NCBI GenBank assembly: GCA_010028705.1
Contig: RHAI01000010.1
Span: 5,506 to 37,505, forward strand
Reading direction: 5' to 3'
DNA: 32,000 nucleotides
Origin: a bacterium
GTDB lineage: Bacteria > Margulisbacteria > Marinamargulisbacteria > SXXA01
A program made the translations under genes and the position numbers. The notes under the pieces are model-generated. The model did not search any database. It had not been told where the DNA came from and was given only the letters and a program-made list of their open reading frames with translations. Shown here piece by piece: positions 15,007 to 32,000 of this stretch. The stretch's first letter is position 1. Each line of letters opens with the position of its first letter.

Positions 15007-15433
15007 AATATTGGGCATCATCGATTCGATTGAAGCTACGGTTCTCGACGGGAAAAAAGTGCCGTTTTCGGACAAGGTACTAATGGACGAGAAGCGCCTT
15101 CTCAATTTATTGGATAAATTGAGATATGTGATAAAAAACGATCCCGAATCGATTCGGCGGTCGATCGAGACGGGTACAATGACACCATCGACGCCAGCCC
15201 CGACGCCAGTTGTTATTGAGACTCCAGTGGCGATACATCCGGATGTGTTGCGTCAGGCTGATGACGAAAGTCAACGCCTTCGCAGAAATGCCGACGAATA
15301 TGCGGACAATGTACTCGCCCATCTTCAAATGCTTGTAACTCGCGCGCAAAAGAATTTGATCAAGCTGGAGCAAAGTATTGATTCTGGGAGACAAAATCTT
15401 GAAAACCGTCGCGCTGAAAAGGAGCTAGGATGA
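14999..15433 (+). CDS. DivIVA/ATPase-like coiled-coil protein, the type often found next to coaD
   Basis: N terminus 'IIDSIEATVLDGKKVPFSDKVLMDEKRLLNLLDKLRYVI' resembles the coaD-linked coiled-coil proteins of Clostridia-type genomes. Pro-rich linker, then a helical C-terminal half. Overlaps coaD by 8 nt. Confidence 0.65.
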   Translation: MNEILGIIDSIEATVLDGKKVPFSDKVLMDEKRLLNLLDKLRYVIKNDPESIRRSIETGTMTPSTPAPTPVVIETPVAIHPDVLRQADDESQRLRRNADEYADNVLAHLQMLVTRAQKNLIKLEQSIDSGRQNLENRRAEKELG

Positions 15434-17082: not shown

Positions 17083-17457
17083 TTATGTGGTGGGTCCGGA
17101 GGGTTTCCCACGTTTAGATTTGGCCATTTTATCGAGCTGATATACAAAAGCTAAAACTTCAGCAACCAACGTGTAAAGCTCGGCAGGTATCTCAGAATTG
17201 AGGTCAAGTTTAGCTAGCAAGTCCGTCAGCGTTTCGTCTTCAAAAAACGGAATTCGATTTTCTTCCGCAAGTTCAAGTATTTTTTCAGCGACAGTTGCTT
17301 TGCCCGTAGCGACAATTTTGGGCGCTTTGTCTTTTCCTACCTGATATTTGATTGCAATCGCTTTGAGGTCTTTTTTCTCGGGAAGTTGCAATTCGTCAAG
17401 GTGACGTTTTAATTTGCGAGCTTTTTTATTTAAAAGGGATTGCGGTATTTTTTTCAT
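17083..17457 (-). CDS. FhlB-like protein (FlhB/YscU C-terminal-domain homologue, similar to B. subtilis YlqH)
   Basis: 'AIAIKYQVGKDKAPKIVATGKATVAEKILELAEENRIPFFEDETLTDLLAKLDLNSEIPAELYTLVAEVLAFVY' matches the FlhB cytoplasmic C-domain. There is no TM domain. Confidence 0.85.
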   Translation of the reverse strand: MKKIPQSLLNKKARKLKRHLDELQLPEKKDLKAIAIKYQVGKDKAPKIVATGKATVAEKILELAEENRIPFFEDETLTDLLAKLDLNSEIPAELYTLVAEVLAFVYQLDKMAKSKRGKPSGPTT

Positions 17458-18743
17458 ACTTCGGTATTGATCCTTGATAAGTTATCTAAATTAAGTTTAG
17501 GAAGTATCAAATTGCGGATAGAAATTGGCTTGTCGGAGGTTTGTAACCCAGCGAGTTCATAGTTTTGTACGGATAATTGTTCTTTGAATTCACCAATCCA
17601 TTGTGTGAGCAACATCCGGCTGTCCGTTTTGGATGTGTTGACTTGCATCCAAACCTTTTTATCCAATACATCAAGCGTGATGCACATTTCGCCTAGATCT
17701 TGAGTTTCAAATTTTATTATGACACGGGTTTTCTGTGGGTTGTATTCAGTTTTCTTTTTCAGAGGATCTTTTCGAATTAGTAATTCGATCGATGATTTTC
17801 CGTTCATCCAGGGATTAGGGAATTGCCAGTATCCAAATCGATCAGTGATTCCTGTTTGGGCGATTTGTTCGGACATTATAGCTTGGCTTGTTAACGCTTC
17901 TAGAAATCCGCTAATGTCATGTTGTAATTGCTGAGATGCTTCGAGGATCCGTTTCGCGGAGGGCGAATCGCCATGATCCAGACCAATTTTTTGACGCAAA
18001 CCGCCTAAAAACTCAAGCATCGATTTGAAGTCATTGATTAATTCGGTCCGCGACGCGGGATTCCAGTTCGCCTTTTCCTTCGAAGATTTTGAGAACTTTT
18101 TAAGCGACTCATCTAAATCGCCGAGAATAGATGTCAGCCCTGTGAGTAGCCCTGTGGTAAATAATTCGCTGCTCCAATTCAAGTTTAATTTAAAGTTTGC
18201 CATCGCGTTTTGGAGTTGTTGAAATTGTTGGCTAATTTCAAGCTGGTTGTTAAGAAAATGGCCGATTATATCCACGCTTCTGGGTGCTTCGGCCAGGCCT
18301 TTTGATACACTGACGACCGACGATTCTAGCGAGTTATTTGCTTTTCTGCCCTTTAATAATGTTTGTACTGTCTCAAAATTTTGGGCAGATGCCTCTAAGC
18401 CAAATTGTAATATCGATGACATTATTTGGATGTTTTCCGAGGTGGGGGGATGTTTAATTTGAACAAGTTGATCCACAATGTCGGATCGTGAAATCGGGCG
18501 AGATACCGTCTCTCTGGGTTGTGTTGGGGACGTCGGATCGTTTTTAGTTGTCGGTTTTGATGCCGCCACTTTGGTGGTAGTTTCAACCGATCCAGGGGCT
18601 CCAATATTTTTGTTTATACCCTGAGCTTCCTCGATTGAAAACGTCTTTTTAATGCCCGATGTGTCATCCGCTTTGGTGGTCGGTTTGACCGAAGATTCAA
18701 AGTAACCGCCGCTTCTTCGAGAACTTGATACACCTAAATCCAT
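17454..18743 (-). CDS. FliK-like hook-length-control-type protein (compare B. subtilis YlqG)
   Basis: Overlaps the start of the FhlB-like gene. Low-complexity N terminus. Segment 'VIIKFETQDLGEMCITLDVLDKKVWMQVNTSKTDSRMLLTQWIGEFKEQLSVQNYEL' resembles the FliK C-terminal domain. Confidence 0.6.
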   Translation of the reverse strand: MDLGVSSSRRSGGYFESSVKPTTKADDTSGIKKTFSIEEAQGINKNIGAPGSVETTTKVAASKPTTKNDPTSPTQPRETVSRPISRSDIVDQLVQIKHPPTSENIQIMSSILQFGLEASAQNFETVQTLLKGRKANNSLESSVVSVSKGLAEAPRSVDIIGHFLNNQLEISQQFQQLQNAMANFKLNLNWSSELFTTGLLTGLTSILGDLDESLKKFSKSSKEKANWNPASRTELINDFKSMLEFLGGLRQKIGLDHGDSPSAKRILEASQQLQHDISGFLEALTSQAIMSEQIAQTGITDRFGYWQFPNPWMNGKSSIELLIRKDPLKKKTEYNPQKTRVIIKFETQDLGEMCITLDVLDKKVWMQVNTSKTDSRMLLTQWIGEFKEQLSVQNYELAGLQTSDKPISIRNLILPKLNLDNLSRINTEV

Positions 18744-19758: not shown

Positions 19759-21060
19759 ATGGAGAAAATGATGGTTTTGTCTGAACAAATGTTTCAATCT
19801 GCTCGCCGGATATTAGTCGGTGGGGTAAATAGCCCGGTACGAGCATTTAAGAGTGTGGGTGGAACCCCTGTCTTCTTTAAAGAAGGTTACGGGTCTCGGT
19901 TAGTGTCCGTTGATGATCATGAATTTATTGATTACGTACTCTCGTGGGGGCCAATGATTTTGGGTCACGCATTTCCTCCGGTTGTCGAGTCGATTGTATC
20001 TGCGGTTCACCGAGGCCTGTCGTTTGGAGCTCCGACTGAAGCGGAGACAATTTTGGCCGATTTGATTCACGAATTTTTCCCCTCAATGGAGCGAGTGCGT
20101 TTTGTCAATTCCGGAACCGAAGCCTGTATGAGCGCGATTCGTTTAGCTCGGGGTGTTACGGGGCGCCGCCGAATACTAAAATTCGAAGGGTGTTACCATG
20201 GTCACGCCGATGCGTTATTAGTTAAAGCCGGGTCCGGTGGACTGACTCTTGGGTGTCCGGATAGTGCGGGGGTGTTAAGTGAGTGGGCGCAGTGGACATC
20301 GATCGCGCCTTACAACGATTTGGAGTCGGTTCGTAAGTTGTTTGCGAACGTTGGGGATGATATTGCTGCAATTATTGTGGAGCCAGTTGTTGGAAATATG
20401 GGTGTGGTGCCGCCCAACCCAGGATTCTTACAAGGCCTCCGTGACATCGCGAGTGCTCATGGGACTCTGTTAATTTTTGACGAAGTGATGACCGGATTCC
20501 GAGTCGCGCTGAAAGGGGCCCAACATAAGTATGGGGTAGTGCCAGATATTACGTGTTTAGGAAAGGTGGTTGGGGGTGGATTGCCATGTGCTGCATACGG
20601 TGGCCGGGCCGAATTCATGGAATATTTGGCGCCTGTGGGCCCGGTCTATCAGGCTGGAACGTTATCGGGCAATCCCGTCGCAATGGCAGCGGGCATTTCG
20701 ACGCTTACAGCATTAAAGACGAGTAATCACTTTGAACGAGCGGAATCGCATGCATCACATATTGTTGCCGGGATGCGCCAGTGGATAACGGCTCATGGTT
20801 TGCCGTTGACTGTTAGTCAGGTGGGGACGATGTGGACTCTGTTTTTTTCAGATACGACGGTTTTTAATTTAGCCACTGCACAACGGTCGGATACCAGACG
20901 GTTTTCGCTATATTATCGTGCAATGTTAGACCGGGGCGTTTACCTTGCACCCTCACAATTTGAATCTAATTTCACCTCGTCTGCCCACACGCTCACTGAT
21001 GCGGACTTTTTTATTAGTTCATTTGAGAAGAGTTTGGATTTGGAAATATTCGGGAAATAA
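19759..21060 (+). CDS. hemL: Glutamate-1-semialdehyde 2,1-aminomutase
   Basis: 'GGVNSPVRAFKSVGGTPVF', 'RFVNSGTEACMSAIRLARG', 'KFEGCYHGHADALLVKAGSG', 'LIFDEVMTGFR', 'CLGKVVGGG'. Start may be ATG 19768 or 19771, since GGAG lies at 19761-19764. Confidence 0.95.
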   Translation: MEKMMVLSEQMFQSARRILVGGVNSPVRAFKSVGGTPVFFKEGYGSRLVSVDDHEFIDYVLSWGPMILGHAFPPVVESIVSAVHRGLSFGAPTEAETILADLIHEFFPSMERVRFVNSGTEACMSAIRLARGVTGRRRILKFEGCYHGHADALLVKAGSGGLTLGCPDSAGVLSEWAQWTSIAPYNDLESVRKLFANVGDDIAAIIVEPVVGNMGVVPPNPGFLQGLRDIASAHGTLLIFDEVMTGFRVALKGAQHKYGVVPDITCLGKVVGGGLPCAAYGGRAEFMEYLAPVGPVYQAGTLSGNPVAMAAGISTLTALKTSNHFERAESHASHIVAGMRQWITAHGLPLTVSQVGTMWTLFFSDTTVFNLATAQRSDTRRFSLYYRAMLDRGVYLAPSQFESNFTSSAHTLTDADFFISSFEKSLDLEIFGK

Positions 21061-21078
21061 TGGTCCATTCATTCATTT

Positions 21079-21092
21079 CACATTCGAATGTG
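21079..21092. promoter_or_regulatory. Perfect 14-bp palindrome CACATTCGAATGTG, candidate operator for the motor cassette
   Basis: Exact inverted repeat in the hemL to TPR/SPOR intergenic region, about 34 bp upstream of a TATAAT at 21126-21131. Confidence 0.35.
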
Positions 21093-21159
21093 TTGATGCC
21101 TATTTCGATATTGCGCTTGCTCGTTTATAATGAGGCAATCGCGAAGGGAGTTTGAAGTT

Positions 21160-22191
21160 ATGGGTTCTGAAATTAAGGGTAGTTTCAATACCGTTTTGAT
21201 ACTTGCGTGGTCCGTGGGGTTCCTAATCGTGGGTTCTCCATTATTGCTTGCTCAAACGGCGGTTTCGTCTCCTTTGAAGCAATCGCAAGCTGCCGCTGCA
21301 TCATCGCTGAAGAAAGAGGCTCCCCTGACGGATGATGAAATTTTCCAGTTTCAACAAAAATACAAAGACGCCCTGGCCGCCAAACGATTTGACGAGGCCT
21401 TGATTTTGGTCCGTAAGTTGCCTGATTCAAGCCTGTCTCGGCCTCAGCGCAAAGAAATGACATCATTGCTACTGTTTGATTCAGTCGAACAAAAAGTGGC
21501 GAGTTCATCGTCCATGTTTGCCAAAGAAGACGAGTTGGATGATGCGACAAAAAAGATGGTTCAGAAGTTATATAAAGAGGCGGAATCAGCGTTTATTACG
21601 AACCAAACGGAATTGTCCCGTGATATTTTGATTCATATTTTATTCCTGCATCGTCAGAATCTCCGGGCTAAATTTTTGTTAGAAGAAGGGCTTGATTTGA
21701 AAGCAGGGTCATACAAGATTGAAAATATGGAGGCGAAATACTGGAATAAATCCTCTATTAGCTTTTATGGTGGAAATTACCAGCAGTCTGTTGATTGTCT
21801 CCAAGCATTGTCCTTTTTCGACAAGGATAACCCAACTGTTTATGAACGTATGGGCTCGGCGTATTACATGATGGGCGAAAAAGAGCGTGCGATTAGCGCC
21901 TGGAACACGGTGCTTTTCTTGGATCCAGGAAACGCTGAGATTCAAGAGATAATTAAAAAAACTCAAGAGATGATTGCCGAGGATAAGGAAGAAGCTAAGC
22001 GGGACCGAGCCAAGCCAAAGGCGGCGCAAAATGTTAACCTTGCAGATACTCAATTAATGGGGAAGTTTCCGAAGCAGGATCAAGCGTATGAGTTTGCTAA
22101 CTCATTACGTAAGCAAGGGGTCGATGCAATCGTTACGGAAGAAGATGATGGGAAATGGGCCGTTCGGACCCCCAAAAAAGGATCGAAATAG
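21160..22191 (+). CDS. Exported or anchored TPR protein with a C-terminal SPOR-like segment
   Basis: ATG 21160 preceded by GAAGGGAG (21143-21150), better than the ORF-track start at 21130. Signal/TM 'VLILAWSVGFLIVGSPLLLAQT'. TPR-like 'NYQQSVDCLQALSFFDKDNPTVYERMGSAYYMMGEKERAISAWNTVLFLDPGN'. C-terminal 'GKFPKQDQAYEFANSLRKQGVDAIVTEEDDGKWAVRT' has a SPOR-like pattern. Confidence 0.75.
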   Translation: MGSEIKGSFNTVLILAWSVGFLIVGSPLLLAQTAVSSPLKQSQAAAASSLKKEAPLTDDEIFQFQQKYKDALAAKRFDEALILVRKLPDSSLSRPQRKEMTSLLLFDSVEQKVASSSSMFAKEDELDDATKKMVQKLYKEAESAFITNQTELSRDILIHILFLHRQNLRAKFLLEEGLDLKAGSYKIENMEAKYWNKSSISFYGGNYQQSVDCLQALSFFDKDNPTVYERMGSAYYMMGEKERAISAWNTVLFLDPGNAEIQEIIKKTQEMIAEDKEEAKRDRAKPKAAQNVNLADTQLMGKFPKQDQAYEFANSLRKQGVDAIVTEEDDGKWAVRTPKKGSK

Positions 22192-22203
22192 AAAGGGATT
22201 ATT

Positions 22204-23664
22204 ATGCTCAAGTGCTTGTCTCGGTTGTTTGTAGTATTGGTTAGTCTAATTCTTGCAATTCCGATTTTTGCGAGTCCAGACCAAATTGCCATTGAAGAGC
22301 AGTTGGCAACACGCTTACAGAGGTCATTAGATTCTATTTATGGACCGAACAACTTTGTTGTCCGAGTTGATGTTTCGTTGTCGGCCCCGAGTTATCAGGT
22401 TCGTTATACGGCTCAATCGAAAGCCGCTGTTTCTGGCGAGTCAAAGACTTCGGCAAAAGTTAACATTATGCCTGGATATCCGGTGATTAGAAATTTAGGT
22501 CCCGAGACGATGAAACAGCTTCCGTTTGATTCGGTTACTACCTATGCGACTCCGGCGTTGCAATCGATTACTGTGCACCTGCTCATTAACAAGTCTTTCC
22601 CCAAAAGTCAGGCTGGTCGGGCCCAAGCTATTGTCAAAGAACTTCTAAATTGGAAAGATGGTCGCGATAAAATTGAGGTTGCCTATAAGCCGTTTATTGA
22701 TCAAGCGGCACCCGTTCAAAAAATCGAAATCGAAAATCAAGGCGACAAATTGTTTTCGACTCAAAATATTTTCTACATGATTTTCGCCGGTTTGGCACTA
22801 GTTTTTATGATGCTTTATGGGTATTTTTCGGGTCGGACATCGAAGACGCTCAATGCTCTGTCCGTGGCCGGGCCGGCTAGTTCTGGCGGTGGAGGTGGCG
22901 CCGCTCCAAGCGTAACCGTCAGCCCGTCGATTGAGCTTCCCAAGGGTTCCGGAGGTGGTGGCGATATTAAAATTTCGAACGCACCCCCCGTTAAGCAATA
23001 TTTCGATTTTATTAGTGACGATACGTTGGATAAGCTCACCTATCTCTTAAAAAAAGAGAATGTTGGTCCTGATAATCTTAGCCTAATCGTTGGTTTTTTA
23101 CGTCCCGATTTGGCGGCTAAGCTATTGACCCAATTTGATGTGAAGATACAGGCCGCAATTGCCTTGAATATTATCGATCAAAAAATGATTAATCGGGCGG
23201 TACTCGATAAATTAGAATCTCAAATAAAAGGAGCAATCGAGTGTCTGAGCGGTGGCGAATTATCATTCAAATCGATTTATTCAACAGTCTCTAGCTCAAA
23301 TAAAAAACAGCTGTTAGCCCTTCTCGAAAAATCCTCACCCGAAGGATTTAAGAAAGTTCGGAATAATATCGTGCTGTTTGATGATTTAGCAGTTCTTGAT
23401 GACGAAGAAATTAAATTATTGTTATCTGAGGTCCGTGCCGAATTGTTTGCTGTAGCTTTGGCCTCATCGGATCCTAATCTGTACGATCGGTTTGATCGCA
23501 ATATGACCCGAAACGCCAAGGAAGTTATATCCCAGTTTTTAGAGATTCGAGGCGCCAATATTGGTGTTGATGAGATTGAAAAAGCACGCACCAATATTTT
23601 AGATATTGCACTGCGGTTGGAGCGAGACGGACGAGTTCAGATCTCCGCTAAATTGCGGAAGTAA
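22204..23664 (+). CDS. FliF(RBM3)-TM-FliG(M+C) fusion-type rotor protein
   Basis: Signal peptide (aa 1-24). FliF RBM3-like 'IEEQLATRLQRSLDSIYGPNNFVVRVDVSLS' and 'LQSITVHLLINKS...AQAIVKELLNWKDGRDKIEVAYKPF'. TM 'NIFYMIFAGLALVFMMLYGYFSG' (about aa 188-210). Gly-rich linker. FliG-M-like 'NVGPDNLSLIVGFLRPDLAAKLLTQFD'. FliG-C-like 'IVLFDDLAVLDDEEIKLLLSEVRAELFAVALASSDPNLYDRFDRNMTRNAKEVI' and 'EIEKARTNILDIALRLERDGRV'. Confidence 0.82.
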   Translation: MLKCLSRLFVVLVSLILAIPIFASPDQIAIEEQLATRLQRSLDSIYGPNNFVVRVDVSLSAPSYQVRYTAQSKAAVSGESKTSAKVNIMPGYPVIRNLGPETMKQLPFDSVTTYATPALQSITVHLLINKSFPKSQAGRAQAIVKELLNWKDGRDKIEVAYKPFIDQAAPVQKIEIENQGDKLFSTQNIFYMIFAGLALVFMMLYGYFSGRTSKTLNALSVAGPASSGGGGGAAPSVTVSPSIELPKGSGGGGDIKISNAPPVKQYFDFISDDTLDKLTYLLKKENVGPDNLSLIVGFLRPDLAAKLLTQFDVKIQAAIALNIIDQKMINRAVLDKLESQIKGAIECLSGGELSFKSIYSTVSSSNKKQLLALLEKSSPEGFKKVRNNIVLFDDLAVLDDEEIKLLLSEVRAELFAVALASSDPNLYDRFDRNMTRNAKEVISQFLEIRGANIGVDEIEKARTNILDIALRLERDGRVQISAKLRK

Positions 23665-23685
23665 TTTAGAGGAAAGGAGTAGGGC

Positions 23686-24459
23686 ATGATAGGACTGTAT
23701 GTTGGGTTTTTAGTTGTATTATGGATTATGTTTGAGTTAATCGGAGTCGATGCGAACGCCAAGCTGTTTTTGAGTAAAGAAGCCTCGGTTGTCGTTGTGG
23801 GGGGGTTAGTTAGTGCGACGTTAATTAATTTCCCAATTACCCAGGTCAAAAAAATTGGAAGCTGGATGAAGGTCGTATTTAAGGCTCCCAAAAAAGATTT
23901 TTTGGAGGAAATTGCCTTATTGCTTCGCTTATCGCAAAAGATGAGTCGAGAGGGTAGACAATCGTTGGAGCCTGAAATTGAAAAGATAAATGACGGGTTT
24001 TTGAAGGCGGCGATGACTCTAGTCATGAATCGCGTGGAACCCCGTGAAATTAAAAGCTTGCTTAAAGAAATGATTGAACAGTCAGGAAGCCGTCACGAGC
24101 AGGGTATTCATTATTTTGAACAAATGGCCAAGTATTCTCCTGGATTAGCATTGATTGGTACGCTTTCCGGGTTGGTAAAATTATTGGCCAACGTATCTGA
24201 TCCGAAGACAATTGGTCCGAACATGGCTTTGGCACTGGTGTGTACATTTTATGGTGTAACATCGGCTAATTTGATATTTTTACCGATGTCTGGCCGATTA
24301 AAGGTCTCAAGTCACGTTGAAGCGATTCATAAGGAGCAACTTGTTGAGGCGGTTGTCGCAATGGCATCGGATGAACTTCCGATTGTTGTTCAAGAGAAAC
24401 TTTACATGTTGCTAACCTCCAAAGATCGCACCTTGGTAAGTAAAAAGCTAGGAGTTTAA
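23686..24459 (+). CDS. motA: MotA-type flagellar stator protein
   Basis: Strong SD (GAGGAAAGGAG). 'EASVVVVGGLVSATLINFPITQVKK', 'GRQSLEPEIEKINDGFLKAAMTLV', 'YSPGLALIGTLSGLVKLLANVSDPKTIGPNMALALVCTFYGVTSANLIFLPMSGRLK'. Confidence 0.93.
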   Translation: MIGLYVGFLVVLWIMFELIGVDANAKLFLSKEASVVVVGGLVSATLINFPITQVKKIGSWMKVVFKAPKKDFLEEIALLLRLSQKMSREGRQSLEPEIEKINDGFLKAAMTLVMNRVEPREIKSLLKEMIEQSGSRHEQGIHYFEQMAKYSPGLALIGTLSGLVKLLANVSDPKTIGPNMALALVCTFYGVTSANLIFLPMSGRLKVSSHVEAIHKEQLVEAVVAMASDELPIVVQEKLYMLLTSKDRTLVSKKLGV

Positions 24460-24462
24460 TTC

Positions 24463-25209
24463 ATGGGACAGAAATTCCAAACGGAAGTAGAAAATTTTTA
24501 TGTTTCGTTTTCGGACTTGCTGTCTCTTCTATTAATTTTTTTCGTATATCTGTTTTCGATGTCGTCTATTGATTCCGAAAAGTATACCCAGGCGTCAGAG
24601 TCCATTAGCCAGGAGTTTTCAAGCGAGCAAAAAAATAGTGGTAATATGCCCTATAGTATACCAGTTCCCCCGGGGGGGCAGGCGGATAAACGAATGCGGA
24701 GTGCAGAAGGTATACTGGTGTCTAAGTTAAAAGCCCAGATTGAGAGTGAAAAACTTGACGGCCAGGCCAAATTAGAGATTTCCCCCAAGTCTGTTAAGGT
24801 GGTCTTATCCTCCCCGGTGTTGTTTGCGTCCGGGAGTTCCGATCTTAGTGCTGAAGGTGCTGTATTGCTTGGAAAATTTGGTCCCATTATTAAGCAAGTC
24901 TTGAATCCTGTTGTTATTGAAGGATTCACTGATAACGTTCCTATTCACAATAGTCGCTTCGACAGCAACTGGGAGTTGTCGTTTCAACGGACCTTGTCTG
25001 TAATGAGGTATTTTATCGACAAGTTTTCCTTCAGTCCCGAACAATTGTCCGGGACAGGTTTTGGTCAGTATCGCCCTTTAGTACCCAATACTTCGGACGA
25101 AAACCGAGCCCGAAATCGTAGGATTGAAATATCTATAATTAGAGACTATAACCTTCCGGAGATAGCCCCTGATAAGGTCCTTGAAAAGGATCCTCCCAAA
25201 TCTAAATAA
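24463..25209 (+). CDS. motB: MotB-type flagellar stator protein (OmpA-like peptidoglycan-binding domain)
   Basis: SD AGGAG. 'FYVSFSDLLSLLLIFFVYLFSMSS' TM with the ion-binding Asp (D18). PG-binding 'IEGFTDNVPIHNSRFDSNWELSFQRTLSVMRYF...GTGFGQYRPLVPNTSDENRARNRRIEISI'. Confidence 0.94.
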   Translation: MGQKFQTEVENFYVSFSDLLSLLLIFFVYLFSMSSIDSEKYTQASESISQEFSSEQKNSGNMPYSIPVPPGGQADKRMRSAEGILVSKLKAQIESEKLDGQAKLEISPKSVKVVLSSPVLFASGSSDLSAEGAVLLGKFGPIIKQVLNPVVIEGFTDNVPIHNSRFDSNWELSFQRTLSVMRYFIDKFSFSPEQLSGTGFGQYRPLVPNTSDENRARNRRIEISIIRDYNLPEIAPDKVLEKDPPKSK

Positions 25210-25216
25210 TTCCCTT

Positions 25217-26515
25217 TTAGTTGAATATTCCCGAGTCTAAGAATTCTTTATTAGACTTGGTGTGCCTCAGTATTTTGATAAGCTCTTCAATCGCACTTTC
25301 GGAGTCGATATTTTTGCGGAGAAGGTATGCTTTTTTAAGCGTTTCTTCGTTAAGGAGGAGCTCTTCTTTTCGAGTTCCGGAATTGATGATGTCAATCGCT
25401 GGAAAAATGCGCCGATTCGCTAGCTTTCGGTCAAGATGGAGTTCCATGTTACCTGTACCTTTAAATTCTTCGTAGATAATGTCATCCATTCGGGACCCTG
25501 TATCTACTAGAGCTGTTGCGATGATTGTCAGACTTCCTTCTTGCTCGATCTTTCGAGCGCCTCCGAAGAATCGTTTTGGTTTATGGAGCGAACTAGGGTC
25601 TAATCCGCCCGATAGTGTTCGTCCCGACGGTGGGACGACCAGGTTGTACGCTCGTGCTAAGCGAGTGATACTGTCGAGTAGGATTACGACATCTTTGCCG
25701 CATTCGACAAGGCGTTTGGCGCTGTCGAGTACTAGTTCTGAAATTCGTACATGTTGTTCCGGGGGTTCATCAAAGGTGGAGTAAATAACTTCTCCTTGGA
25801 CCGACCGCTCCATATCGGTTACCTCTTCGGGGCGCTCGTCGATCAATAGGACTTTGATTATAACTTCGGGATGATTGATTGAAATCGCATTAGCGATCTC
25901 TTTCAGTATTGTTGTTTTTCCCGCTTTCGGTGGGGATACGATTAGTGACCGTTGCCCTTTTCCGATTGGCATCAACATATCCATTAATCGGCCGGATATT
26001 GGCACGCTATCTATTTCAAGCTTTAATTGTTCATAGGGATATACCGGAGTTAGATTGGAAAATAGAGTCCGCTCTTTAATTTTTTCCGGGTCCTCCCAAT
26101 TTATTGCCTCAACTCGTAGCAATGAAAAATATCGTTCACCATCCTTGGGTGGGCGTACCTGCCCCGATATCGTATCTCCGGACGAAAGACCAAACCTGCG
26201 GATCTGAGTTTGTGACACATATATATCTTCCGAGCTTGGTAAGTAATTGTTGGTTCGTAGAAACCCATAACCATCGGCAAGTATTTCCAGAACTCCCCGA
26301 GCGAATATGAGTCCATTGGATTCGGTTTTTGCTTGTAATAATTTAAAGATAAGGTCATTTTTTTTGAGTAGCTTGTGTTCCGGGATATTTAATTTTTGAG
26401 CTAAAGTATGTAGGTCTTTTAAGTGTGACTTCTGAAGTTCGACAATATCGAGTGATCCATCGTTTTCGTGAAGTGCTTTTATCTCTTCGTCGGTTTTCAG
26501 TTTGCGTTTTTCCAT
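25217..26515 (-). CDS. rho: Transcription termination factor Rho
   Basis: '[18 protein letters not shown]', '[13 protein letters not shown]', '[16 protein letters not shown]', '[57 protein letters not shown]'. Start at 26515 (MEKRKLK) is more likely than the track start at 26542. Confidence 0.97.
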
Positions 26516-26618
26516 AATCTGGATAGCTCTCCTAGGCGCCACTATTAAAGGGTGGATTTTCCATTAAAAATAGCGTGAGTTGTGGGGTAGTGAATCGGGG
26601 TTAGAGCGAGACTATACC

Positions 26619-27596
26619 TTAACTACTTAGTATTCTCAATATATCTCTAGCGGCGTAAGTAATAATTAGGTCGGCGCCGGCACGTTTAAGCGAAATTACG
26701 GATTCCATTATTATGTCGCGATCGTTGGCTAAATTATGTTTAATGGCGAGCTGGAGCATCGAGTATTCTCCTGATACCTGGTAGGCAACAATGGGTGTTT
26801 TTATCTGATCCCGGAGTTCACGTATAATATCAAGGTACATCATACCAGGCTTAACCATGACTAAGTCGGCACCTTCGGAAATATCCTGCACGGTTTCTAG
26901 TATCGCTTCTCGCCGTTGTGTGGGCGCTATTTGGTGGTGCTTTCGGTCGCCTATAAATTGGGTACCCGATCCCGCGGCATCGCGAAACGGACCATATAGT
27001 GAACTTGCATATTTTGCCGAGTAGGCGAGTATTCCAGTGTGATTATGACGGGCGTCGTCCAATGATTGGCGTATCGCCTGGACGGCCCCGTCCATCATGC
27101 CAGATGGTGCAATAAAGTCGGCGCCAGCATTCGCATATGAGAATGCTATTTTTTTCAAGCAATCGAGGGTGGCGTCGTTATCGAGACCTCGGGTGGTTAA
27201 TATTCCGCAATGTCCGTGGTTGGTATACTCGCACAAACAACAATCTGCAAAAATCACGATATTTGGCACCCGTTGTTTAATCCCTTTAATTACTGTTTGG
27301 ACGCCACCCTGCGGATTCCATGCTGAGGTGCCATGCGCGTCTTTTTGCCGAGGAATTCCAAAAATTAATACGCCTCTTAGGCCTGAGCGGTATGCCGTTT
27401 CCACTTCATTAATCGCGATATCGGGCGGGTATTGGAATACTCCAGGCATTGATGGTACTGGGACAGGGGCGGCGATGTCTTCCCGAATAAATAATGGCCA
27501 AATTAGGTCGCTTGGATCGATTCGTGTTTCAGCGAGTAATTCGCGAACGCCGAGGGTTCTGCGGACTGTATGAAATCGTTTAATTTTTTGCTGCAT
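26619..27596 (-). CDS. hemB: Delta-aminolevulinic acid dehydratase (porphobilinogen synthase)
   Basis: 'DLIWPLFIRE', 'MPGVFQYPPD', 'VIFADCCLCEYTNHGHCGI', 'GADFIAPSGMMDGAVQAIRQSLD', 'MVKPGMMYLDIIR', 'PIVAYQVSGEYSML'. Confidence 0.96.
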   Translation of the reverse strand: MQQKIKRFHTVRRTLGVRELLAETRIDPSDLIWPLFIREDIAAPVPVPSMPGVFQYPPDIAINEVETAYRSGLRGVLIFGIPRQKDAHGTSAWNPQGGVQTVIKGIKQRVPNIVIFADCCLCEYTNHGHCGILTTRGLDNDATLDCLKKIAFSYANAGADFIAPSGMMDGAVQAIRQSLDDARHNHTGILAYSAKYASSLYGPFRDAAGSGTQFIGDRKHHQIAPTQRREAILETVQDISEGADLVMVKPGMMYLDIIRELRDQIKTPIVAYQVSGEYSMLQLAIKHNLANDRDIIMESVISLKRAGADLIITYAARDILRILSS

Positions 27597-28314
27597 TTTG
27601 TTTTCTATGGTCGATTATTTTTTTAATGATGTCTCGTTGAGTCGGTGTGTCTGATATCAATTTATTTGAGCATTTCAAATAGCGTAACGTTTGTTGGCCA
27701 ATCGCTAGATGAACTTGTTGAGGGAGGTCCGTTGGAAATTGATTGAAAAAACTTCGAGCAACGGAGCCGCTAAAATGAATGACATAATCATACTCAAGCG
27801 GTGAATTAATCGCAATCGTTAGGGGTAGAGTCGTATAAATTGCGATTGGATATACTGAGCGACATGATCCTAGCCAGTCGGTAGTCGATAGCTCTGAGCG
27901 AGGATGAATCCATAGTTCGGATGTCAGTTCAGTTGAGAAGTCCTCCATGATGGCGGCCGAAGTGGGGGTCGATGGAAATCGTATGTTGTGCGCTGGGTAT
28001 CCCGCGTTCAGAAATGGAGCGGCTGTTTTTGGTCCGATGCATATGATTTTTTTGTCGCATATTTTTTGGTAGATTTCTCGAGTTGCCAATACTATTTCAG
28101 TCGCATAGTGACTCGTAAATATGATTCCGTCAGCACGAGTTAATAGTGCATTGGAAATTGACCGTTCCCATTTCGGTAAGGCGATCGTGGTGATCGCGGG
28201 CACAGCGTCAAAGTGTCCGCCTTCGGATTCAATTCCAATCTGTAACTCCCGTACTGTCGCTATGTCGCGAAGAGCGAGAACTCTGGCGCCTAGTAGAGCG
28301 GGTTGAGTTTCCAT
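27580..28314 (-). CDS. hemD: Uroporphyrinogen-III synthase
   Basis: 'ADGIIFTSHYATEIVL', 'CIGPKTAAPFLNAGYPAHNI', 'YDYVIHFSGSVARSFF'. Sits between hemC and hemB and overlaps both. Confidence 0.85.
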   Translation of the reverse strand: METQPALLGARVLALRDIATVRELQIGIESEGGHFDAVPAITTIALPKWERSISNALLTRADGIIFTSHYATEIVLATREIYQKICDKKIICIGPKTAAPFLNAGYPAHNIRFPSTPTSAAIMEDFSTELTSELWIHPRSELSTTDWLGSCRSVYPIAIYTTLPLTIAINSPLEYDYVIHFSGSVARSFFNQFPTDLPQQVHLAIGQQTLRYLKCSNKLISDTPTQRDIIKKIIDHRKQNAAKN

Positions 28315-29183
28315 TCAGTCGCTTTTTTTACCAGTTCGCTCGCTGCTAAATCGAGGGATGATCCCACATCTTCGATCTCCAATCTTGAAAAATCAGGACT
28401 GGACCGAAATAGTCGAGTACGGGTGGCGTCCCCCTTAATTTCGGTTAGCATTCCTAACGGTAGTTGACAATCAAATCCTACCGTTCGTAAGAAGCTCAGC
28501 TGCAATGATGAAATGGTATATTGATTGGCGTTACTTATAGATTTCGCCAGCTGCCTAAGCTCAGGATCATTTATCCGTGTTTCAAGGCAAATGACACCCT
28601 GGCCTGGCGCTGGGATGAATTGATGTGGCGGTAGAACCGCGTACGTCGTGTCGAGATGCAATCGCATCATACTCACCTCCGATAGCATAATGGCATCGAG
28701 ATGGTGCAATGCATTTAAACGTGTGCCAATATTCCCACGAATATCCCGGGTAATAATATCCGGCCGAATCATTTTCAAAAGGGCTTTCCTGCGCATCGAT
28801 CCGGTCCCCACGGTGGCATTTCTAGGGAGTGTATCGATGGTGTACTGGAAATTAGATACGAGGCAATCACATATCGATTCTGCCGCTAAAAAACCGGTTA
28901 ATTCAAGCGTATCGGCCGTGTTGGCTGTGACATCTTTCAGCGAATGAACCGCAATGTCGATTTTCTTGTCGATGAGAGCGACTTCCAGTTCTCGAATAAA
29001 AACGCCTTTCCCCCCAATTTCAAAGAGCGGCGATTTTTGGTTAATGTCACCGGTAGTCTCGATACCAATAATTTCAGTCGGTTTTTTGGGAAACGTTGCC
29101 CTTATTTTTTCTTCAACGATCTTCGCTTGTGCCATGGCTAAAGGGGATTTGCGTGATCCTATACGAATGGGTTGGAATGTCAT
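28290..29183 (-). CDS. hemC: Hydroxymethylbilane synthase (porphobilinogen deaminase)
   Basis: 'IRIGSRKSPLAMAQAKIV', 'GVFIRELEVALIDKKIDIAVHSLKDV', 'VGTGSMRRKALL', 'DIRGNIGTRLN', 'PAPGQGVICLE', 'FLRTVGFDCQLPLG'. ATG 29183 overlaps the hemA stop (TAATG); the track start at 29213 is inside hemA. Confidence 0.96.
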   Translation of the reverse strand: MTFQPIRIGSRKSPLAMAQAKIVEEKIRATFPKKPTEIIGIETTGDINQKSPLFEIGGKGVFIRELEVALIDKKIDIAVHSLKDVTANTADTLELTGFLAAESICDCLVSNFQYTIDTLPRNATVGTGSMRRKALLKMIRPDIITRDIRGNIGTRLNALHHLDAIMLSEVSMMRLHLDTTYAVLPPHQFIPAPGQGVICLETRINDPELRQLAKSISNANQYTISSLQLSFLRTVGFDCQLPLGMLTEIKGDATRTRLFRSSPDFSRLEIEDVGSSLDLAASELVKKATEWKLNPLY

Positions 29184-30196: not shown

Positions 30197-30268
30197 TTTT
30201 ATTAACTCTGTTCAAAAAATTGTATCGGTACTGTGCCCCGTTTTGCAACGCGATAAATCTGATTTTGG

Positions 30269-31147
30269 TTGAAATATTGGGCGGTTTTCGTTAGTATCCT
30301 CCCCGTGACGCGACCAAAATTTTCAATCCAAACGATTAGTTCGACCCCCATTCCATCCGTTGTCACGGTGTTTCTTTTTTTTGTGATGTTTGTAATTTTG
30401 CTCTCTGGGGAATCATTCGCTGTGTTCAATGAAAATTACCAAGAGTTTCAAGATCCATCGATCCGAACCGTGGTTCAGAGCATGCGTGCTACTCAGATCC
30501 ATTATAACAACGCGTTATTATACACCATGAATGTCGACACGCCCGGTTATATTGAGATCGGTGGATACAACTCCCTCGACCGTGACGGAGTCATCCAAAT
30601 GATCCCGTTTTATCGATGGCGGGCGGGGCCTGTAGTCGAAACGTTGCGCCCACTCGATTTTTATATCGATGCGGTAGGCAAAGGTTTTTTTCAGGTGTCG
30701 TTGCCGACCGGATTGGGCTTTACTCGCGATGGTCGATTTACGTTGGATTCTCGGCGAAAATTAGTTATGTTAGCGGGAAATTTCCCGGTGTTGGGTGAAC
30801 GAGGAGAAATTTTTTTGCCGGAGGGGGACGAGATTGCCGTATCTAAAACCGGCTTGATTTTTGTGGATGGGGCACCCGTTGACAGAATGAAGGTCGTTGT
30901 TTTCACCGAAAAAGGGATCAATCAATTGGACACAGTGAACGGTAGCATTTTTATTTTAAGTGGCGAGGGAGAATTGAACTCGGCCGCCGATTATTCTGTT
31001 CGGCAGGGCTTTATCGAACAGAATAACATTATAAAGGCCTTAATTGGGGATATTTCCTCGGCAAAAAACACCTATGAAGCTTCGGCGAAAGCTGGGAAAG
31101 CGATTATTAAAGAGATGAATTCAGCCATCCAATTGGGTGCGCCTTAG
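30269..31147 (+). CDS. FlgF/FlgG-family basal-body rod-like protein with an N-terminal hydrophobic/signal segment (start uncertain)
   Basis: 'SMRATQIHYNNALLYTMNVDTPGYIE' is a diverged rod N-terminal motif. 'DFYIDAVGKGFFQVSLPTGLGFTRDGRFTLDSRRKLVMLAGNFPVLG' is the FlgG/FlgF core. C-terminal 'GFIEQNNIIKALIGDI'. The real start may be the downstream GTG of 'VFLFFVMFVILLSGESFA'. Confidence 0.75.
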   Translation: MKYWAVFVSILPVTRPKFSIQTISSTPIPSVVTVFLFFVMFVILLSGESFAVFNENYQEFQDPSIRTVVQSMRATQIHYNNALLYTMNVDTPGYIEIGGYNSLDRDGVIQMIPFYRWRAGPVVETLRPLDFYIDAVGKGFFQVSLPTGLGFTRDGRFTLDSRRKLVMLAGNFPVLGERGEIFLPEGDEIAVSKTGLIFVDGAPVDRMKVVVFTEKGINQLDTVNGSIFILSGEGELNSAADYSVRQGFIEQNNIIKALIGDISSAKNTYEASAKAGKAIIKEMNSAIQLGAP

Positions 31148-31196
31148 GTTGACATTGAACATACGGATATCGTCTGAAATTACAGGAGGTTAATTA

Positions 31197-32000
31197 ATGA
31201 TTTCACAATTATTTATGGCAAAAAGTGCTTTGATCGCATACCAGCGGAAAATGCAGGTAGTCGTTAATAATATTTCAAACGCTCAAACGGTTGGCTACAA
31301 ACGTCGGTCAGTTGAAATGGAAAGTTTGTTCCCCTTAGTGTTTGAATCGGTAATTAATGATGGCGACGAGAGTACGGCAGGGACATCGCGAAGCCGGAAG
31401 CGTTACCTCGAGTATGGACAAGGTGTGCGGGTGGCGGACATTCGGAAGGATATGAGTCCCGGAAGTATTGAAGTGACCAATCAAGATCTTGATATGGCGA
31501 TTGATGGGGCGGGCTTGTTCCAGCTTCGGTTGAGTGATGGAACTGTAGCTTACGGCCGTGCCGGCAATTTTCATGCTGATCCGGATGGGAATGTAGTGGA
31601 TCCAAATGGTAACCCTCTTGAGCCGAATCTGAAATTGCCCCGGGAGTATTCGGATGTCATTATCAATGAAGAAGGGAAGGTGTTTGTTCAGAGTAATGGC
31701 GATCCAAATCCGAGAGAAATTGGTCAGGTGACCCTTGCAATTTTCCCAAATCCGGCGGGCTTGAAAGATATCGGTCAAAATCTATATGTTCAAACCGCTG
31801 CTTCGGGAGACCCTAGTTTTCAAATTCCTGGACGCGGATTGGCGGGGTCGTTACGGCAACGTGCACTCGAATTTTCGAATGTGAATGTGATTGAAGAGAT
31901 GATGAATATGGTGTTAACCCAGCGCGCGTTTGATTTGACGATTAAGTCAATTAACTCTGGCGATCAAATGTTGAAGAGCGGTAGTGATTTGGGTAAATAG
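31197..32000 (+). CDS. flgG: Flagellar basal-body rod protein, FlgG-like
   Basis: SD AGGAGG at 31184-31189. 'MISQLFMAKSALIAYQRKMQVVVNNISNAQTVGYKRRSVEMESL', 'DLDMAIDGAGLFQLRLSDGTVAYGRAGNFHADPDGNVVDPNGNPL', C-terminal 'LEFSNVNVIEEMMNMVLTQRAFDLTIKSINSGDQML'. Stop TAG at 31998-32000. Confidence 0.88.
   Translation: MISQLFMAKSALIAYQRKMQVVVNNISNAQTVGYKRRSVEMESLFPLVFESVINDGDESTAGTSRSRKRYLEYGQGVRVADIRKDMSPGSIEVTNQDLDMAIDGAGLFQLRLSDGTVAYGRAGNFHADPDGNVVDPNGNPLEPNLKLPREYSDVIINEEGKVFVQSNGDPNPREIGQVTLAIFPNPAGLKDIGQNLYVQTAASGDPSFQIPGRGLAGSLRQRALEFSNVNVIEEMMNMVLTQRAFDLTIKSINSGDQMLKSGSDLGK

What the first reader, a model, noticed from the sequence alone, without database searches (positions are those of the whole stretch)
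22204..23664. Natural FliF(RBM3)-TM-FliG(M+C) fusion protein
One 486-aa ORF reads as a Sec signal peptide (22204-22275), a FliF RBM3-like periplasmic domain (about 22276-22764), one TM helix (about 22765-22833), a Gly-rich linker (about 22834-22983), and FliG middle and C-terminal domains (about 22984-23661). The missing parts are informative. FliF TM1/RBM1/RBM2 are gone, replaced by a signal peptide. FliG_N, the domain that docks FliG onto the FliF tail, is also absent and would be unnecessary once the two proteins are covalently joined. FliF-FliG fusions are known as rare functional mutants in Salmonella. I do not know of a described natural protein with this reduced architecture, and I could not search.
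Basis: partly seen in the sequence, partly recalled or inferred. Interest (0 to 1): 0.87.

Follow-up and report, generated by a model that had tools for sequence, protein, structure and literature searches.

The report
Membrane-anchored FliG torque protein with FliF ring domain
A real, conserved gene in uncultured Margulisbacteria joins a FliF-type ring-building domain, through one membrane helix, to the torque-generating part of the flagellar rotor protein FliG, while the normal fliG gene in the same genome is cut down to its front half, which points to a flagellar motor wired differently from any described one.

Summary
ORF 22204-23664 encodes a signal peptide, a FliF RBM3-like domain, one TM helix, a Gly-rich linker and FliG middle and C-terminal domains. 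FliG_MC is shown by Pfam and by a PDB profile match (E 3e-29). RBM3 is shown by fold: the 18 best Foldseek hits are all FliF S-ring, and PF08345 passes threshold in relatives.

It is not an assembly join. The architecture recurs in 35 clusters down to 35% identity, and in over 100 more distant 50%-identity clusters. The organism is a Marinamargulisbacterium.

The same genome, about 8 kb past the window, has a full-length fliF. In fliG's usual place sits a 228-aa FliG with only N and M domains. All 28 clusters of this short FliG are 191-253 aa, and they share contigs or MAGs with the fusion.

The fusion always follows a TPR protein gene, is usually followed by motAB, and in some genomes heads the flagellar cluster.

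Best reading (about 0.55): it supplies the missing FliG_C torque ring in trans, on its own membrane ring. I could not exclude a full-length FliG elsewhere in the genome. A Chlamydiaceae FliF-FliG fusion is already described but is built differently. Verdict: new variant of a known kind.

The parts
21130..22191 (+). Partner gene: TPR protein (353 aa) with an N-terminal hydrophobic segment and a weak C-terminal SPOR-like region. It ends 12 nt before the fusion gene.
   Evidence: TPR_2/TPR_11 hits at aa 212-268; SPOR only E 0.43. Only generic TPR matches in the PDB. A homologue lies directly upstream of the fusion in every related Marinamargulisbacteria locus examined.
22204..23664 (+). The fusion ORF (486 aa plus stop): signal peptide, FliF RBM3-like domain, TM helix, Gly-rich linker, FliG_M, FliG_C.
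22204..22272 (+). Probable Sec signal peptide (aa 1-23), with cleavage predicted after IFA23.
   Evidence: Kyte-Doolittle hydrophobic windows at aa 1-21. In the family alignment -1 is A in 27/32 (S 3, G 2), -3 is V/L/A/I, -4 is P in 18/32, and +1 to +4 are polar or acidic. No dedicated signal-peptide predictor was available, so an uncleaved N-terminal anchor is not excluded.
22273..22698 (+). Periplasmic FliF RBM3-like ring-building domain (aa 24-165). It contains a conserved insertion at about aa 60-118 (22381-22557), in the position of the FliF beta-collar.
   Evidence: AF2 topology. Foldseek top 18 hits are all FliF RBM3/collar. PF08345 hits in relatives. The canonical RBM3 C-terminal motif GRDxI...F is invariant (R154, D155, F164). 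The insertion holds most of the invariant residues (P90, G91, P93, P107, S110, T112).
22765..22833 (+). Single transmembrane helix (aa 188-210).
   Evidence: AF2 helix at 186-216. Hydrophobic windows up to aa 192-210.
22834..22983 (+). Cytoplasmic Gly/Ser-rich linker (aa 211-260) containing a conserved motif, PSVSVNPxxELP.
   Evidence: pLDDT <50 for aa 213-257. P241 and G253 are nearly invariant.
22984..23250 (+). FliG middle domain (ARM_M, aa 261-349). It is followed by the invariant Gly-Gly hinge G350-G351 (23251-23256).
   Evidence: PF14841 at aa 280-344. The profile aligns to T. maritima FliG from residue 5 of 1lkv. E285 is invariant and R331 is 31/32, but the HPQ of the EHPQR motif is not kept.
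23257..23661 (+). FliG C-terminal domain (aa 352-486), including the VLFDDL (MFXF-region) motif and the torque helix at aa 436-450 (23509-23553).
   Evidence: PF01706, 67.7 bits. The model superposes on T. maritima FliG_C (1qc7) at 0.9-1.2 A and on FliG_C bound to MotAB (8ucs_H) at 1.4 A. The torque helix is [KR]-x-A-[KR]....Q-[FY]-L-[DE]-[LI]-[KR]-G.
23686..24459 (+). motA-like stator gene (257 aa), 21 nt after the fusion gene.
   Evidence: PF01618, 84 bits. Best NCBIfam matches are MotP (176 bits) and MotA (159 bits), all below equivalog cutoffs. No ZorA hit.
24463..25209 (+). motB-like stator gene (248 aa): plug plus OmpA-like peptidoglycan-binding domain.
   Evidence: PF13677, 49 bits; PF00691, 60 bits. 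MotS/MotD/MotB NCBIfam matches.
17083..18743 (-). Other flagellar genes in the window: a FliK-like gene (17454-18743) and a stand-alone FlhB C-terminal-domain gene (17083-17457).
   Evidence: PF02120 (29.7 bits, just under the 29.8 cutoff) and PF01312 (70 bits, profile 262-335).
30269..32000 (+). flgF-like (30269-31147) and flgG (31197-32000) rod genes. The cluster continues beyond the window into flgA, flgH, flgI, fliA, flgB/C, fliE, fliF and the short fliG.
   Evidence: L009 overlaps window 28727-32000 at 99.85%; its gene list is.

Best explanation
The ORF encodes a type-I inner-membrane protein.
- Its periplasmic head is a FliF RBM3-type ring-building domain with a shortened collar insertion.
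- Its cytoplasmic tail is a complete FliG middle plus C-terminal (torque) module.

In this Marinamargulisbacterium it is a component of the flagellar motor, not a stand-alone replacement for FliF and FliG. It is encoded with a periplasmic TPR partner and the MotAB stator.

The genome also has a full-length FliF. In fliG's normal position it has a FliG reduced to a FliF-binding N-terminal piece plus the middle domain, and this short FliG keeps the FliM-binding (E)xxPQ motif.

The most likely mechanism (inferred, not shown):
1. The fusion oligomerises through RBM3 into a membrane ring.
2. That ring presents FliG_C domains to the cytoplasmic face of MotA, so the fusion supplies in trans the torque-generating domain that the resident FliG has lost.
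3. Torque reaches the rod by one of two routes. Either the fusion's RBM3/collar ring carries it in the periplasm, or its ARM_C stacks on the ARM_M of the short FliG bound to FliF.
4. The short FliG keeps the link to FliF and probably to the FliM/FliN switch.
For: Architecture (shown).

Real and conserved (shown).

Flagellar context (shown):
- motA and motB follow within 21 and 3 nt in the window.
- motAB also follows directly in L001/13/14, L005/15, L006, L020 and L025-28.
- In L005/L007 the order is TPR, fusion, motA, motB, fliK, flhB-C, flgF, flgG, flgA, flgH, flgI, fliA, flgB, flgC, fliE, fliF, short fliG, all on one strand.

Same-genome FliF and truncated FliG (shown):
- L009 is a continuation of the window.
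- The short FliG has FliG_N at aa 2-63 and FliG_M from aa 118/146, with no C domain.
- Its profile aligns to Salmonella FliG residues 4-154, including EHPQ.
- All 28 clusters are 191-253 aa. Seven share a contig or MAG with a fusion protein.
- FliF keeps RBM1-2 and a tail alignable to the Salmonella FliG-binding tail.

FliG hallmarks kept in the fusion: GG hinge, VLFDDL, and a conserved charged torque helix.

No other FliG_C-encoding gene was found in the window or in any fetched Marinamargulisbacteria locus. This rests on tblastn with the fusion at E<=1e-5 and Pfam scans of window ORFs.
Against: - I could not scan whole genomes. A canonical full-length FliG, for example beside fliM/fliN, may exist elsewhere, in which case the fusion would be accessory.
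- Several loci (L004, L017-L019, L021-L023, and the P0023 locus) have hemL, TPR and the fusion but no motAB or flagellar gene within 10 kb. Whether those genomes are flagellated is unknown.
- The torque-helix residues equivalent to E. coli R281, D288 and D289 are not conserved; Q444 is invariant where D288 would be.
- The fusion carries its own FliG_M, so this is not a clean split of FliG.
- Distant family members sit beside giant ORFs rather than flagellar clusters. The family as a whole may therefore have a non-flagellar role.
- No oligomer model, no expression data and no imaging are available.
Confidence: 0.55

Rival explanations
1. Accessory rotor or scaffold ring. The genome also has a normal full-length FliG elsewhere. 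The fusion, with its TPR partner, forms an extra ring around the motor that recruits, positions or regulates a dedicated MotAB set. It would be comparable in role to the periplasmic scaffolds of Campylobacter or the spirochaete collar, but with a FliG_C bait.
For: - The TPR partner is always present, while motAB is only sometimes adjacent.
- The fusion keeps its own FliG_M and has an altered torque helix.
- Only about 30-50 kb of each genome could be inspected.
Against: - The gene in fliG's canonical position is truncated to N+M in all 28 clusters found. That is hard to explain if a full FliG also binds the same FliF tails.
- No second FliG_C gene was seen in any locus.
Confidence: 0.22
2. Non-flagellar rotary or force-transducing machine. 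RBM3-TM-FliG_MC plus the TPR protein plus MotAB form an autonomous membrane motor that acts on something other than the flagellum, such as an envelope or surface structure. Its position beside flagellar genes in some Margulisbacteria would then be secondary.
For: - hemL, TPR and the fusion are conserved without any flagellar gene nearby in L004, L017-L019 and L021-L023.
- In the distant member P0139 (L031) the order is a 14,454-aa ORF, TPR, fusion, an 800-aa protein, FlbD, MotA, OmpA, MotB.
- L011 and L012 also carry giant ORFs (3521 and 4104 aa) next to family members.
- Some members have other periplasmic heads, such as SLH+TPR or Glucodextran_B.
Against: - In the window's clade and in the L005 clade the gene is contiguous with motAB and the flagellar cluster.
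- The loss of FliG_C from the resident FliG gives the fusion an obvious flagellar job.
- The stator proteins score best against flagellar MotA/MotP and MotB/MotS models.
Confidence: 0.15
3. One reading: a reduced, self-sufficient MS-ring/C-ring protein that replaces separate FliF and FliG.
For: The architecture alone, with RBM3 joined covalently to FliG_MC, makes FliG_N dispensable for this polypeptide.
Against: A full-length fliF (516 aa) and a FliG_N-bearing short fliG lie about 8 kb beyond the window in the same genome. The same holds in other clades.
Confidence: 0.03
4. An assembly or gene-calling artefact that joins two genes, or an anti-phage Zorya-type MotAB system.
For: MotB matches ZorB models in PADLOC, as any MotB homologue would.
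Against: - The same single ORF occurs in dozens of independent assemblies from NCBI, ENA, JGI and Logan, down to 35% identity with conserved length.
- MotA, the fusion and the TPR protein have no PADLOC hit, and there is no ZorC/D.
Confidence: 0.02

Closest known systems
Canonical flagellar rotor protein FliG (Salmonella, T. maritima; TIGR00207; PF14842+PF14841+PF01706)
   Same: - Middle and C-terminal domains are homologous (E 3e-29 to 3ajc).
- The GG hinge, the MFXF-region motif and the six-helix C-terminal bundle are kept; the model superposes at 0.9-1.4 A.
- It is encoded next to motAB.
   Different: - No FliG_N.
- It is anchored in the membrane by its own TM helix and has a periplasmic domain.
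- The EHPQ motif is degraded.
- Torque-helix charges are re-patterned: Q-[F/Y] replaces D288-D289.
- It scores 70.8 bits against the TIGR00207 cutoff of 226.7.
FliF MS-ring protein, RBM3/beta-collar (S-ring) region (PF08345; PDB 6sd3, 7cg7, 8z4g)
   Same: - The periplasmic domain has the RBM3 fold, with an insertion between beta1 and beta2 and the GRDxI...F motif.
- It is the best structural match, ahead of all other PDB folds.
   Different: - No TM1, RBM1, RBM2 or C-terminal FliG-binding tail.
- The insertion is about 50 residues, much shorter than the Salmonella collar as I recall it.
- The window protein itself does not reach any Pfam FliF threshold.
- Profile comparison with the resident FliF's RBM3 region is only marginal (E 0.03, prob 1.7%).
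Chlamydiaceae FliF-FliG fusion (about 330 aa; Bergeron 2016, PMC4768692)
   Same: - A natural single polypeptide with FliF-type periplasmic RBM domain(s), a TM helix and a FliG-homologous cytoplasmic end.
- RBM1 is missing.
   Different: - The Chlamydia protein keeps an RBM2-like domain plus one unclassified RBM, and has two TM helices.
- Its cytosolic part is homologous only to FliG_M, and it occurs in non-flagellated bacteria without MotAB.
- The protein here has RBM3, a signal peptide plus one TM helix, FliG_M and FliG_C, and sits beside motAB in a flagellar gene set.
- The two sequences were not compared directly here.
Laboratory FliF-FliG fusions (Salmonella full-frame and deletion fusions; Vibrio FliF-FliG, PDB 8z4d/8z4g; PMC6079021, PMC10941966)
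   Same: They show that covalent FliF-FliG linkage is compatible with ring assembly (abstracts listed; PDB entry).
   Different: They join full-length or nearly full-length FliF and FliG, including RBM1-2 and, in the full-frame fusions, FliG_N. They are not natural genes.
SpoIIIAG sporulation ring (PDB 5wc3)
   Same: An RBM fold with a beta insertion that forms a large ring. It is the next-best structural match after FliF (E 4e-4).
   Different: There is no FliG module and no motor context, and the match is far weaker than to FliF RBM3.

Membership tests
FliG (flagellar motor switch protein, TIGR00207 equivalog) | FliG_N domain that binds the FliF C-terminal tail | tested here: not met
   The TIGR00207 alignment starts at model position 105. 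There is no PF14842 hit for the window protein. FliG_N is found instead on the separate short FliG.
FliG (flagellar motor switch protein, TIGR00207 equivalog) | FliG_M (ARM_M) domain | tested here: met
   PF14841, 26.9 bits against a cutoff of 25. All 32 members match. Aligned to T. maritima FliG_M.
FliG (flagellar motor switch protein, TIGR00207 equivalog) | FliG_C domain with Gly-Gly hinge and MFXF-region motif | tested here: met
   PF01706, 67.7 bits. G350, G351, F392 and D394 are invariant. Superposes on 1qc7 at 0.9-1.2 A.
FliG (flagellar motor switch protein, TIGR00207 equivalog) | EHPQR FliM-binding motif in FliG_M | tested here: inconclusive
   E285 is invariant and R331 is 31/32, but H-P-Q is replaced by N-[VLI]-x-x-[ED] with a two-residue insertion. 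The short FliG keeps xxPQ.
FliG (flagellar motor switch protein, TIGR00207 equivalog) | Conserved torque-helix charges (E. coli R281, D288, D289, R297; positions recalled from the literature) | tested here: not met
   The equivalent positions are S/N, Q (32/32), F/Y and K/R. Charged residues are present but shifted: K/R436, K/R439, D/E447, K/R449. Alignment is to T. maritima; E. coli numbering is from memory.
FliG (flagellar motor switch protein, TIGR00207 equivalog) | Whole-protein score above the curated equivalog cutoff | tested here: not met
   70.8 bits against a cutoff of 226.7.
FliF (MS-ring protein; PF01514 + PF08345) | RBM1-RBM2 (YscJ_FliF, PF01514) | tested here: not met
   No PF01514 hit in any of the 32 members. 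The resident FliF has it at 150 bits.
FliF (MS-ring protein; PF01514 + PF08345) | RBM3 with collar insertion (YscJ_FliF_C, PF08345) | tested here: met
   By fold: the top 18 PDB hits are FliF RBM3/collar. By sequence, only in relatives: P0033 30.1, P0031 28.1, P0131 44.5 and P0137 34.8 bits. The window protein itself has no hit.
FliF (MS-ring protein; PF01514 + PF08345) | Two TM helices and a C-terminal FliG_N-binding tail | tested here: not met
   There is one internal TM helix plus a probable cleavable signal peptide. The C-terminus is FliG_MC, not a tail.
FliF (MS-ring protein; PF01514 + PF08345) | Assembles into a ring of about 33-35 subunits | not testable with these tools
   No multimer prediction was available. 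The collar-like insertion is low-confidence in the monomer models.
Chlamydiaceae FliF-FliG fusion (Bergeron 2016) | RBM2-like domain plus FliG_M-only cytosolic region; two TM helices; about 330 aa; organism without flagella | tested here: not met
   The features described in PMC4768692 differ from those found here.
Zorya (ZorAB) anti-phage system | ZorA with a long tail, ZorB, and ZorC/D or ZorE/F/G partners | tested here: not met
   Only MotB matches ZorB models. MotA, the fusion and the TPR protein have no PADLOC hit.

The most novel reading that the evidence does not exclude
RBM3-TM-FliG_MC proteins, with their TPR partners and a dedicated MotAB, form a widespread and undescribed class of membrane-embedded rotor that is separable from the flagellum.
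- In Marinamargulisbacteria this rotor would have taken over torque generation from a FliG that then lost its C domain.
- In other lineages it would work with giant proteins of 3,500 to 14,000 aa as a non-flagellar, ion-driven machine. The supporting loci are L031, with a 14,454-aa ORF, TPR, fusion, FlbD, MotA and MotB, and L011 and L012.
Probability: 0.15. Interest if true: 0.9.

Novelty: new variant of a known kind. Interest (0 to 1): 0.72.

Why it matters
In all well-studied motors, as far as I know, the torque-receiving domain FliG_C hangs from the MS-ring through FliG_N bound non-covalently to the FliF tail. In this lineage that domain appears to sit on a separate membrane-spanning protein with its own FliF-type ring domain, while the resident FliG keeps only the FliF- and FliM-facing parts.

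If confirmed, this is a natural dissection of the rotor into an assembly/switch adaptor and a torque ring. It would bear on three points:
- how torque passes from FliG to the rod;
- how the symmetries of the MS-ring and C-ring are matched;
- how modular the FliF and FliG domains were during flagellar evolution.

The family is large (211 representatives at E<=1e-30) and almost entirely unannotated. Some members lie beside giant genes with their own stator genes, so it may also mark a second use of the flagellar rotor-stator pair.

Tried and rejected
Searches that gave nothing useful:
- A sequence-profile search of the N-domain alone against PDB sequences gave only chance-level hits to pentameric ion channels (E >= 0.14), not FliF. 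The link to FliF rests on fold and on Pfam hits in relatives.
- hhalign of the fusion N-domain against the resident FliF's RBM3 region was marginal (E 0.03, prob 1.7%). I do not claim a recent duplication.
- The FliF profile did not align its RBM3 region to Salmonella FliF. The statement that this FliF lacks a collar-length insertion rests on segment lengths and a MAFFT alignment read by eye.
- The promoter/terminator scan found nothing above the shuffled expectation.
- The TPR partner matches only generic or designed TPR proteins.

It was repeated with 8 sequences.
- The last contig look-up, with the window's YceG, found no record. The 10 kb upstream of the window stayed unseen.
- Cluster look-ups gave almost no taxon names for distant members.

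Not achieved:
- I could not scan any whole genome for a second FliG_C gene or for fliM/fliN.

Rejected readings:
- Zorya.
- Assembly chimera.
- Sole FliF+FliG replacement.

Literature searches found no description of this architecture and none of Margulisbacteria flagella.
Full report
**1. The observation**

ORF 22204-23664 (+) is the only long ORF at that position and translates to 486 aa. It begins 12 nt after a 353-aa TPR protein gene (21130-22191). motA (23686-24459) follows 21 nt later and motB (24463-25209) 3 nt after that. Plausible Shine-Dalgarno sequences precede the fusion gene and motA.

The rest of the window is mostly housekeeping: yceG, recJ, pepN, purL, recG, rph, ctpA, hemL, rho and hemB/D/C/A. 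It also holds a FliK-like gene, a stand-alone FlhB C-terminal-domain gene, and flgF/flgG at the right end.

**2. The cytoplasmic half is FliG_M + FliG_C**

- Pfam gives FliG_M at aa 280-344 and FliG_C at aa 374-480, both above threshold.
- TIGR00207 aligns aa 260-481 to model positions 105-329, so FliG_N is missing.
- A profile of 32 family members matches T. maritima FliG_MC at E 3e-29.
- The AF2 model's C-terminal domain superposes on T. maritima FliG_C at 0.9-1.2 A. It superposes on FliG_C bound to MotAB (8ucs) at 1.4 A.
- The Gly-Gly hinge (G350, G351) and the VLFDDL segment (F392, D394) are invariant.
- The torque helix is conserved within the family, but with a charge pattern unlike the E. 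coli one. Q444 is invariant where D288 would be (E. coli numbering from memory).
- The EHPQR motif is only partly kept: E285 and R331 remain, HPQ is lost.

**3. The periplasmic half is FliF RBM3-like**

- The window protein has no Pfam hit in aa 1-260.
- Twelve of 32 relatives hit PF08345 at E<=1, and two pass the threshold.
- Distant members match the full PF08345 model: P0131 at 44.5 bits and P0137 at 34.8 bits.
- The AF2 model of aa 22-186 has an RBM fold with a low-confidence insertion between beta1 and beta2.
- Against the PDB, its 18 best hits are all FliF RBM3/collar structures at E about 1e-7. SpoIIIAG and PrgK follow.
- With the full-length model, all 32 hits at E<=1e-3 are FliG or FliF.
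- The insertion (about aa 60-118) carries most of the family's invariant residues, and the RBM3 C-terminal GRDxI...F motif is invariant.
- The N-terminus behaves as a Sec signal peptide: Ala at -1 in 27/32 and an aliphatic or small residue at -3. An uncleaved anchor cannot be excluded without a dedicated predictor.
- The TM helix lies at about aa 188-210 and the disordered Gly-rich linker at 211-260.

**4. It is real and conserved**

- Thirty-five 90%-identity clusters from NCBI, ENA, JGI and Logan assemblies share the length and architecture down to 35% identity.
- Eighteen species-level genomes carry it. Those with a named taxon are Margulisiibacteriota or Marinamargulisbacteria.
- An exhaustive HMM search found 211 representatives at E<=1e-30. 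Most of the 150 listed match over the whole profile. The architecture therefore reaches well beyond this clade.

**5. Context**

- hemL, TPR and the fusion appear in that order in nearly every related locus.
- motAB follows directly in most loci, but not in L004, L017-L019 or L021-L023. In L016 the slot holds an IS remnant.
- In L005/L007 the fusion heads one long same-strand flagellar cluster: motAB, fliK, flhB-C, flgFG, flgA, flgH, flgI, fliA, flgBC, fliE, fliF and a short fliG.

**6. The same genome has FliF and a truncated FliG**

- L009 overlaps window 28727-32000 at 99.85% identity. It continues into flgA...fliE, fliF (516 aa) and a 228-aa gene, P0076, tagged EB093_03605. The window's fusion is EB093_02625.
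- FliF has RBM1-2 (E 7e-27 to Salmonella FliF 47-222) and a tail alignable to the Salmonella FliG-binding tail.
- Its RBM3-like region shows the RGRDxI...ADF motif, but only about 10 residues lie where the collar insertion should be. This is read by eye.
- The short FliG has FliG_N at aa 2-63, a low-complexity linker, a FliG_M with an (E/K)x(R/K)PQ motif, and a conserved C-terminal VFxF. Its profile aligns to Salmonella FliG 4-154.
- All 28 clusters found are 191-253 aa, and seven share a contig or MAG with a fusion protein.
- No other FliG_C gene was seen in any fetched locus.

**7. Interpretation**

Shown:
- The protein is an RBM3-TM-FliG_MC fusion.
- It is conserved and is paired with a TPR protein.
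- It usually precedes motAB.
- It coexists with a full FliF and a C-domain-less FliG.

Inferred:
- It forms a membrane ring that offers FliG_C to MotA, replacing the lost domain.
- The short FliG retains the FliF and FliM contacts.
- Torque passes on through the periplasmic RBM3/collar ring, or through ARM_M-ARM_C stacking. In favour of the collar route, the resident FliF seems collarless and FliE is twice its usual length.

I put this at about 0.55. The main gap is that no whole genome could be scanned for a second FliG or for fliM/fliN.

**8. Rivals**

- An accessory ring alongside a canonical FliG encoded elsewhere: 0.22.
- A non-flagellar MotAB-driven machine: 0.15. This is supported by loci without flagellar neighbours. 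It is also supported by distant members beside giant ORFs with their own FlbD-MotA-OmpA-MotB.
- Artefact and Zorya are excluded.

**9. Comparison with known systems**

- The protein fails FliG membership on FliG_N, on the torque-helix charges and on the equivalog score.
- It fails FliF membership on RBM1-2, on the second TM helix and on the tail.
- It is best described as a new architecture built from both.
- The one natural FliF-FliG fusion in the literature, in Chlamydiaceae, has an RBM2-like domain plus another RBM and only FliG_M, in non-flagellated cells.
- Laboratory FliF-FliG fusions join nearly full-length proteins.
- Ten literature look-ups found no description of this family, nor of Margulisbacteria flagella.

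**10. Verdict**

- Observation: confirmed.
- Novelty: new variant of a known kind.
- Interest: 0.72.

Noticed in passing
L009 10001-10687 (continuation of the window's genome); also L007 12287-12931 and L008 8215-8976: The gene in fliG's usual place after fliF encodes only 214-253 aa. It has half a FliG_N, a Gly/Ser linker, a FliG_M with an xxPQ motif, an acidic stretch and a conserved C-terminal (V/L)F(F/S/G)F peptide. It has no FliG_C. All 28 clusters found are 191-253 aa.
   Followed up: yes
L009 7733-8419; L007 10001-10642; L008 5921-6610: FliE is 213-229 aa. The Pfam FliE match covers only the last ~85 residues, so the protein carries an N-terminal extension of about 120 aa that matches nothing. 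From memory, FliE is usually about half this length.
   Followed up: no
L009 8448-9998 (FliF, about aa 300-405); alignments A5 and A6: The resident FliF's RBM3-like region has only about 10 residues between beta1 and beta2, where FliF normally carries the beta-collar insertion. The fusion protein has about 50 there and distant family members about 70. This is judged from sequence by eye only; there is no structure model.
   Followed up: partly
window 17083-17457 (-) and 17454-18743 (-): A stand-alone 124-aa gene matches only the C-terminal domain of FlhB (PF01312 positions 262-335). It overlaps the end of a 429-aa FliK-like gene. The pair is conserved next to the flagellar genes in related loci.
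   Followed up: no
L031 1-16306 (GCA_002412545.1, DHVG01000014.1); L032; L011; L012: Distant members of the fusion family lie next to giant ORFs of 14,454 aa, more than 3,521 aa and more than 4,104 aa, none with a Pfam hit. In L031 the order is giant ORF, TPR protein, fusion (with C-terminal TPRs), an 800-aa unknown, FlbD, MotA, OmpA protein, MotB. No giant ORF occurs in the Marinamargulisbacteria loci.
   Followed up: partly
P0164 (890 aa, L012 10001-12673); P0161 and P0153; P0126 and P0137: Family members with other layouts exist. One has SLH + TPR fused N-terminally to TM-FliG_MC, and a cluster mate is from Margulisbacteria GWD2_39_127. Others have a Glucodextran_B-type domain as the periplasmic head, or TPR repeats fused after FliG_C. 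The SLH+TPR fusion hints that the separate TPR partner and the fusion protein interact physically.
   Followed up: partly
window 19759-30196: The TPR-fusion-motAB block and rho sit inside a split haem-biosynthesis gene set, with hemL upstream and hemB, hemD, hemC and hemA downstream on the other strand. The order hemL, TPR, fusion is kept across the whole clade, even where motAB is absent.
   Followed up: partly
window 22924-22962 (aa 241-253 of the fusion): Inside the otherwise variable Gly-rich cytoplasmic linker there is a conserved motif, PSVSVNPxxELPxG (P241 and G253 nearly invariant). It could be a docking site.
   Followed up: no
L016 9640-10590: In one genome of the L005 clade, the slot between the fusion gene and fliK, where motAB normally lies, holds only a short fragment resembling a transposase.
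   Followed up: partly
window 10926-11873 (+) and 14999-15433 (+): Two conserved ORFs (315 aa and 144 aa) have no Pfam match. The 144-aa one is kept in the same position (coaD, ORF, rph) in related loci.
   Followed up: no
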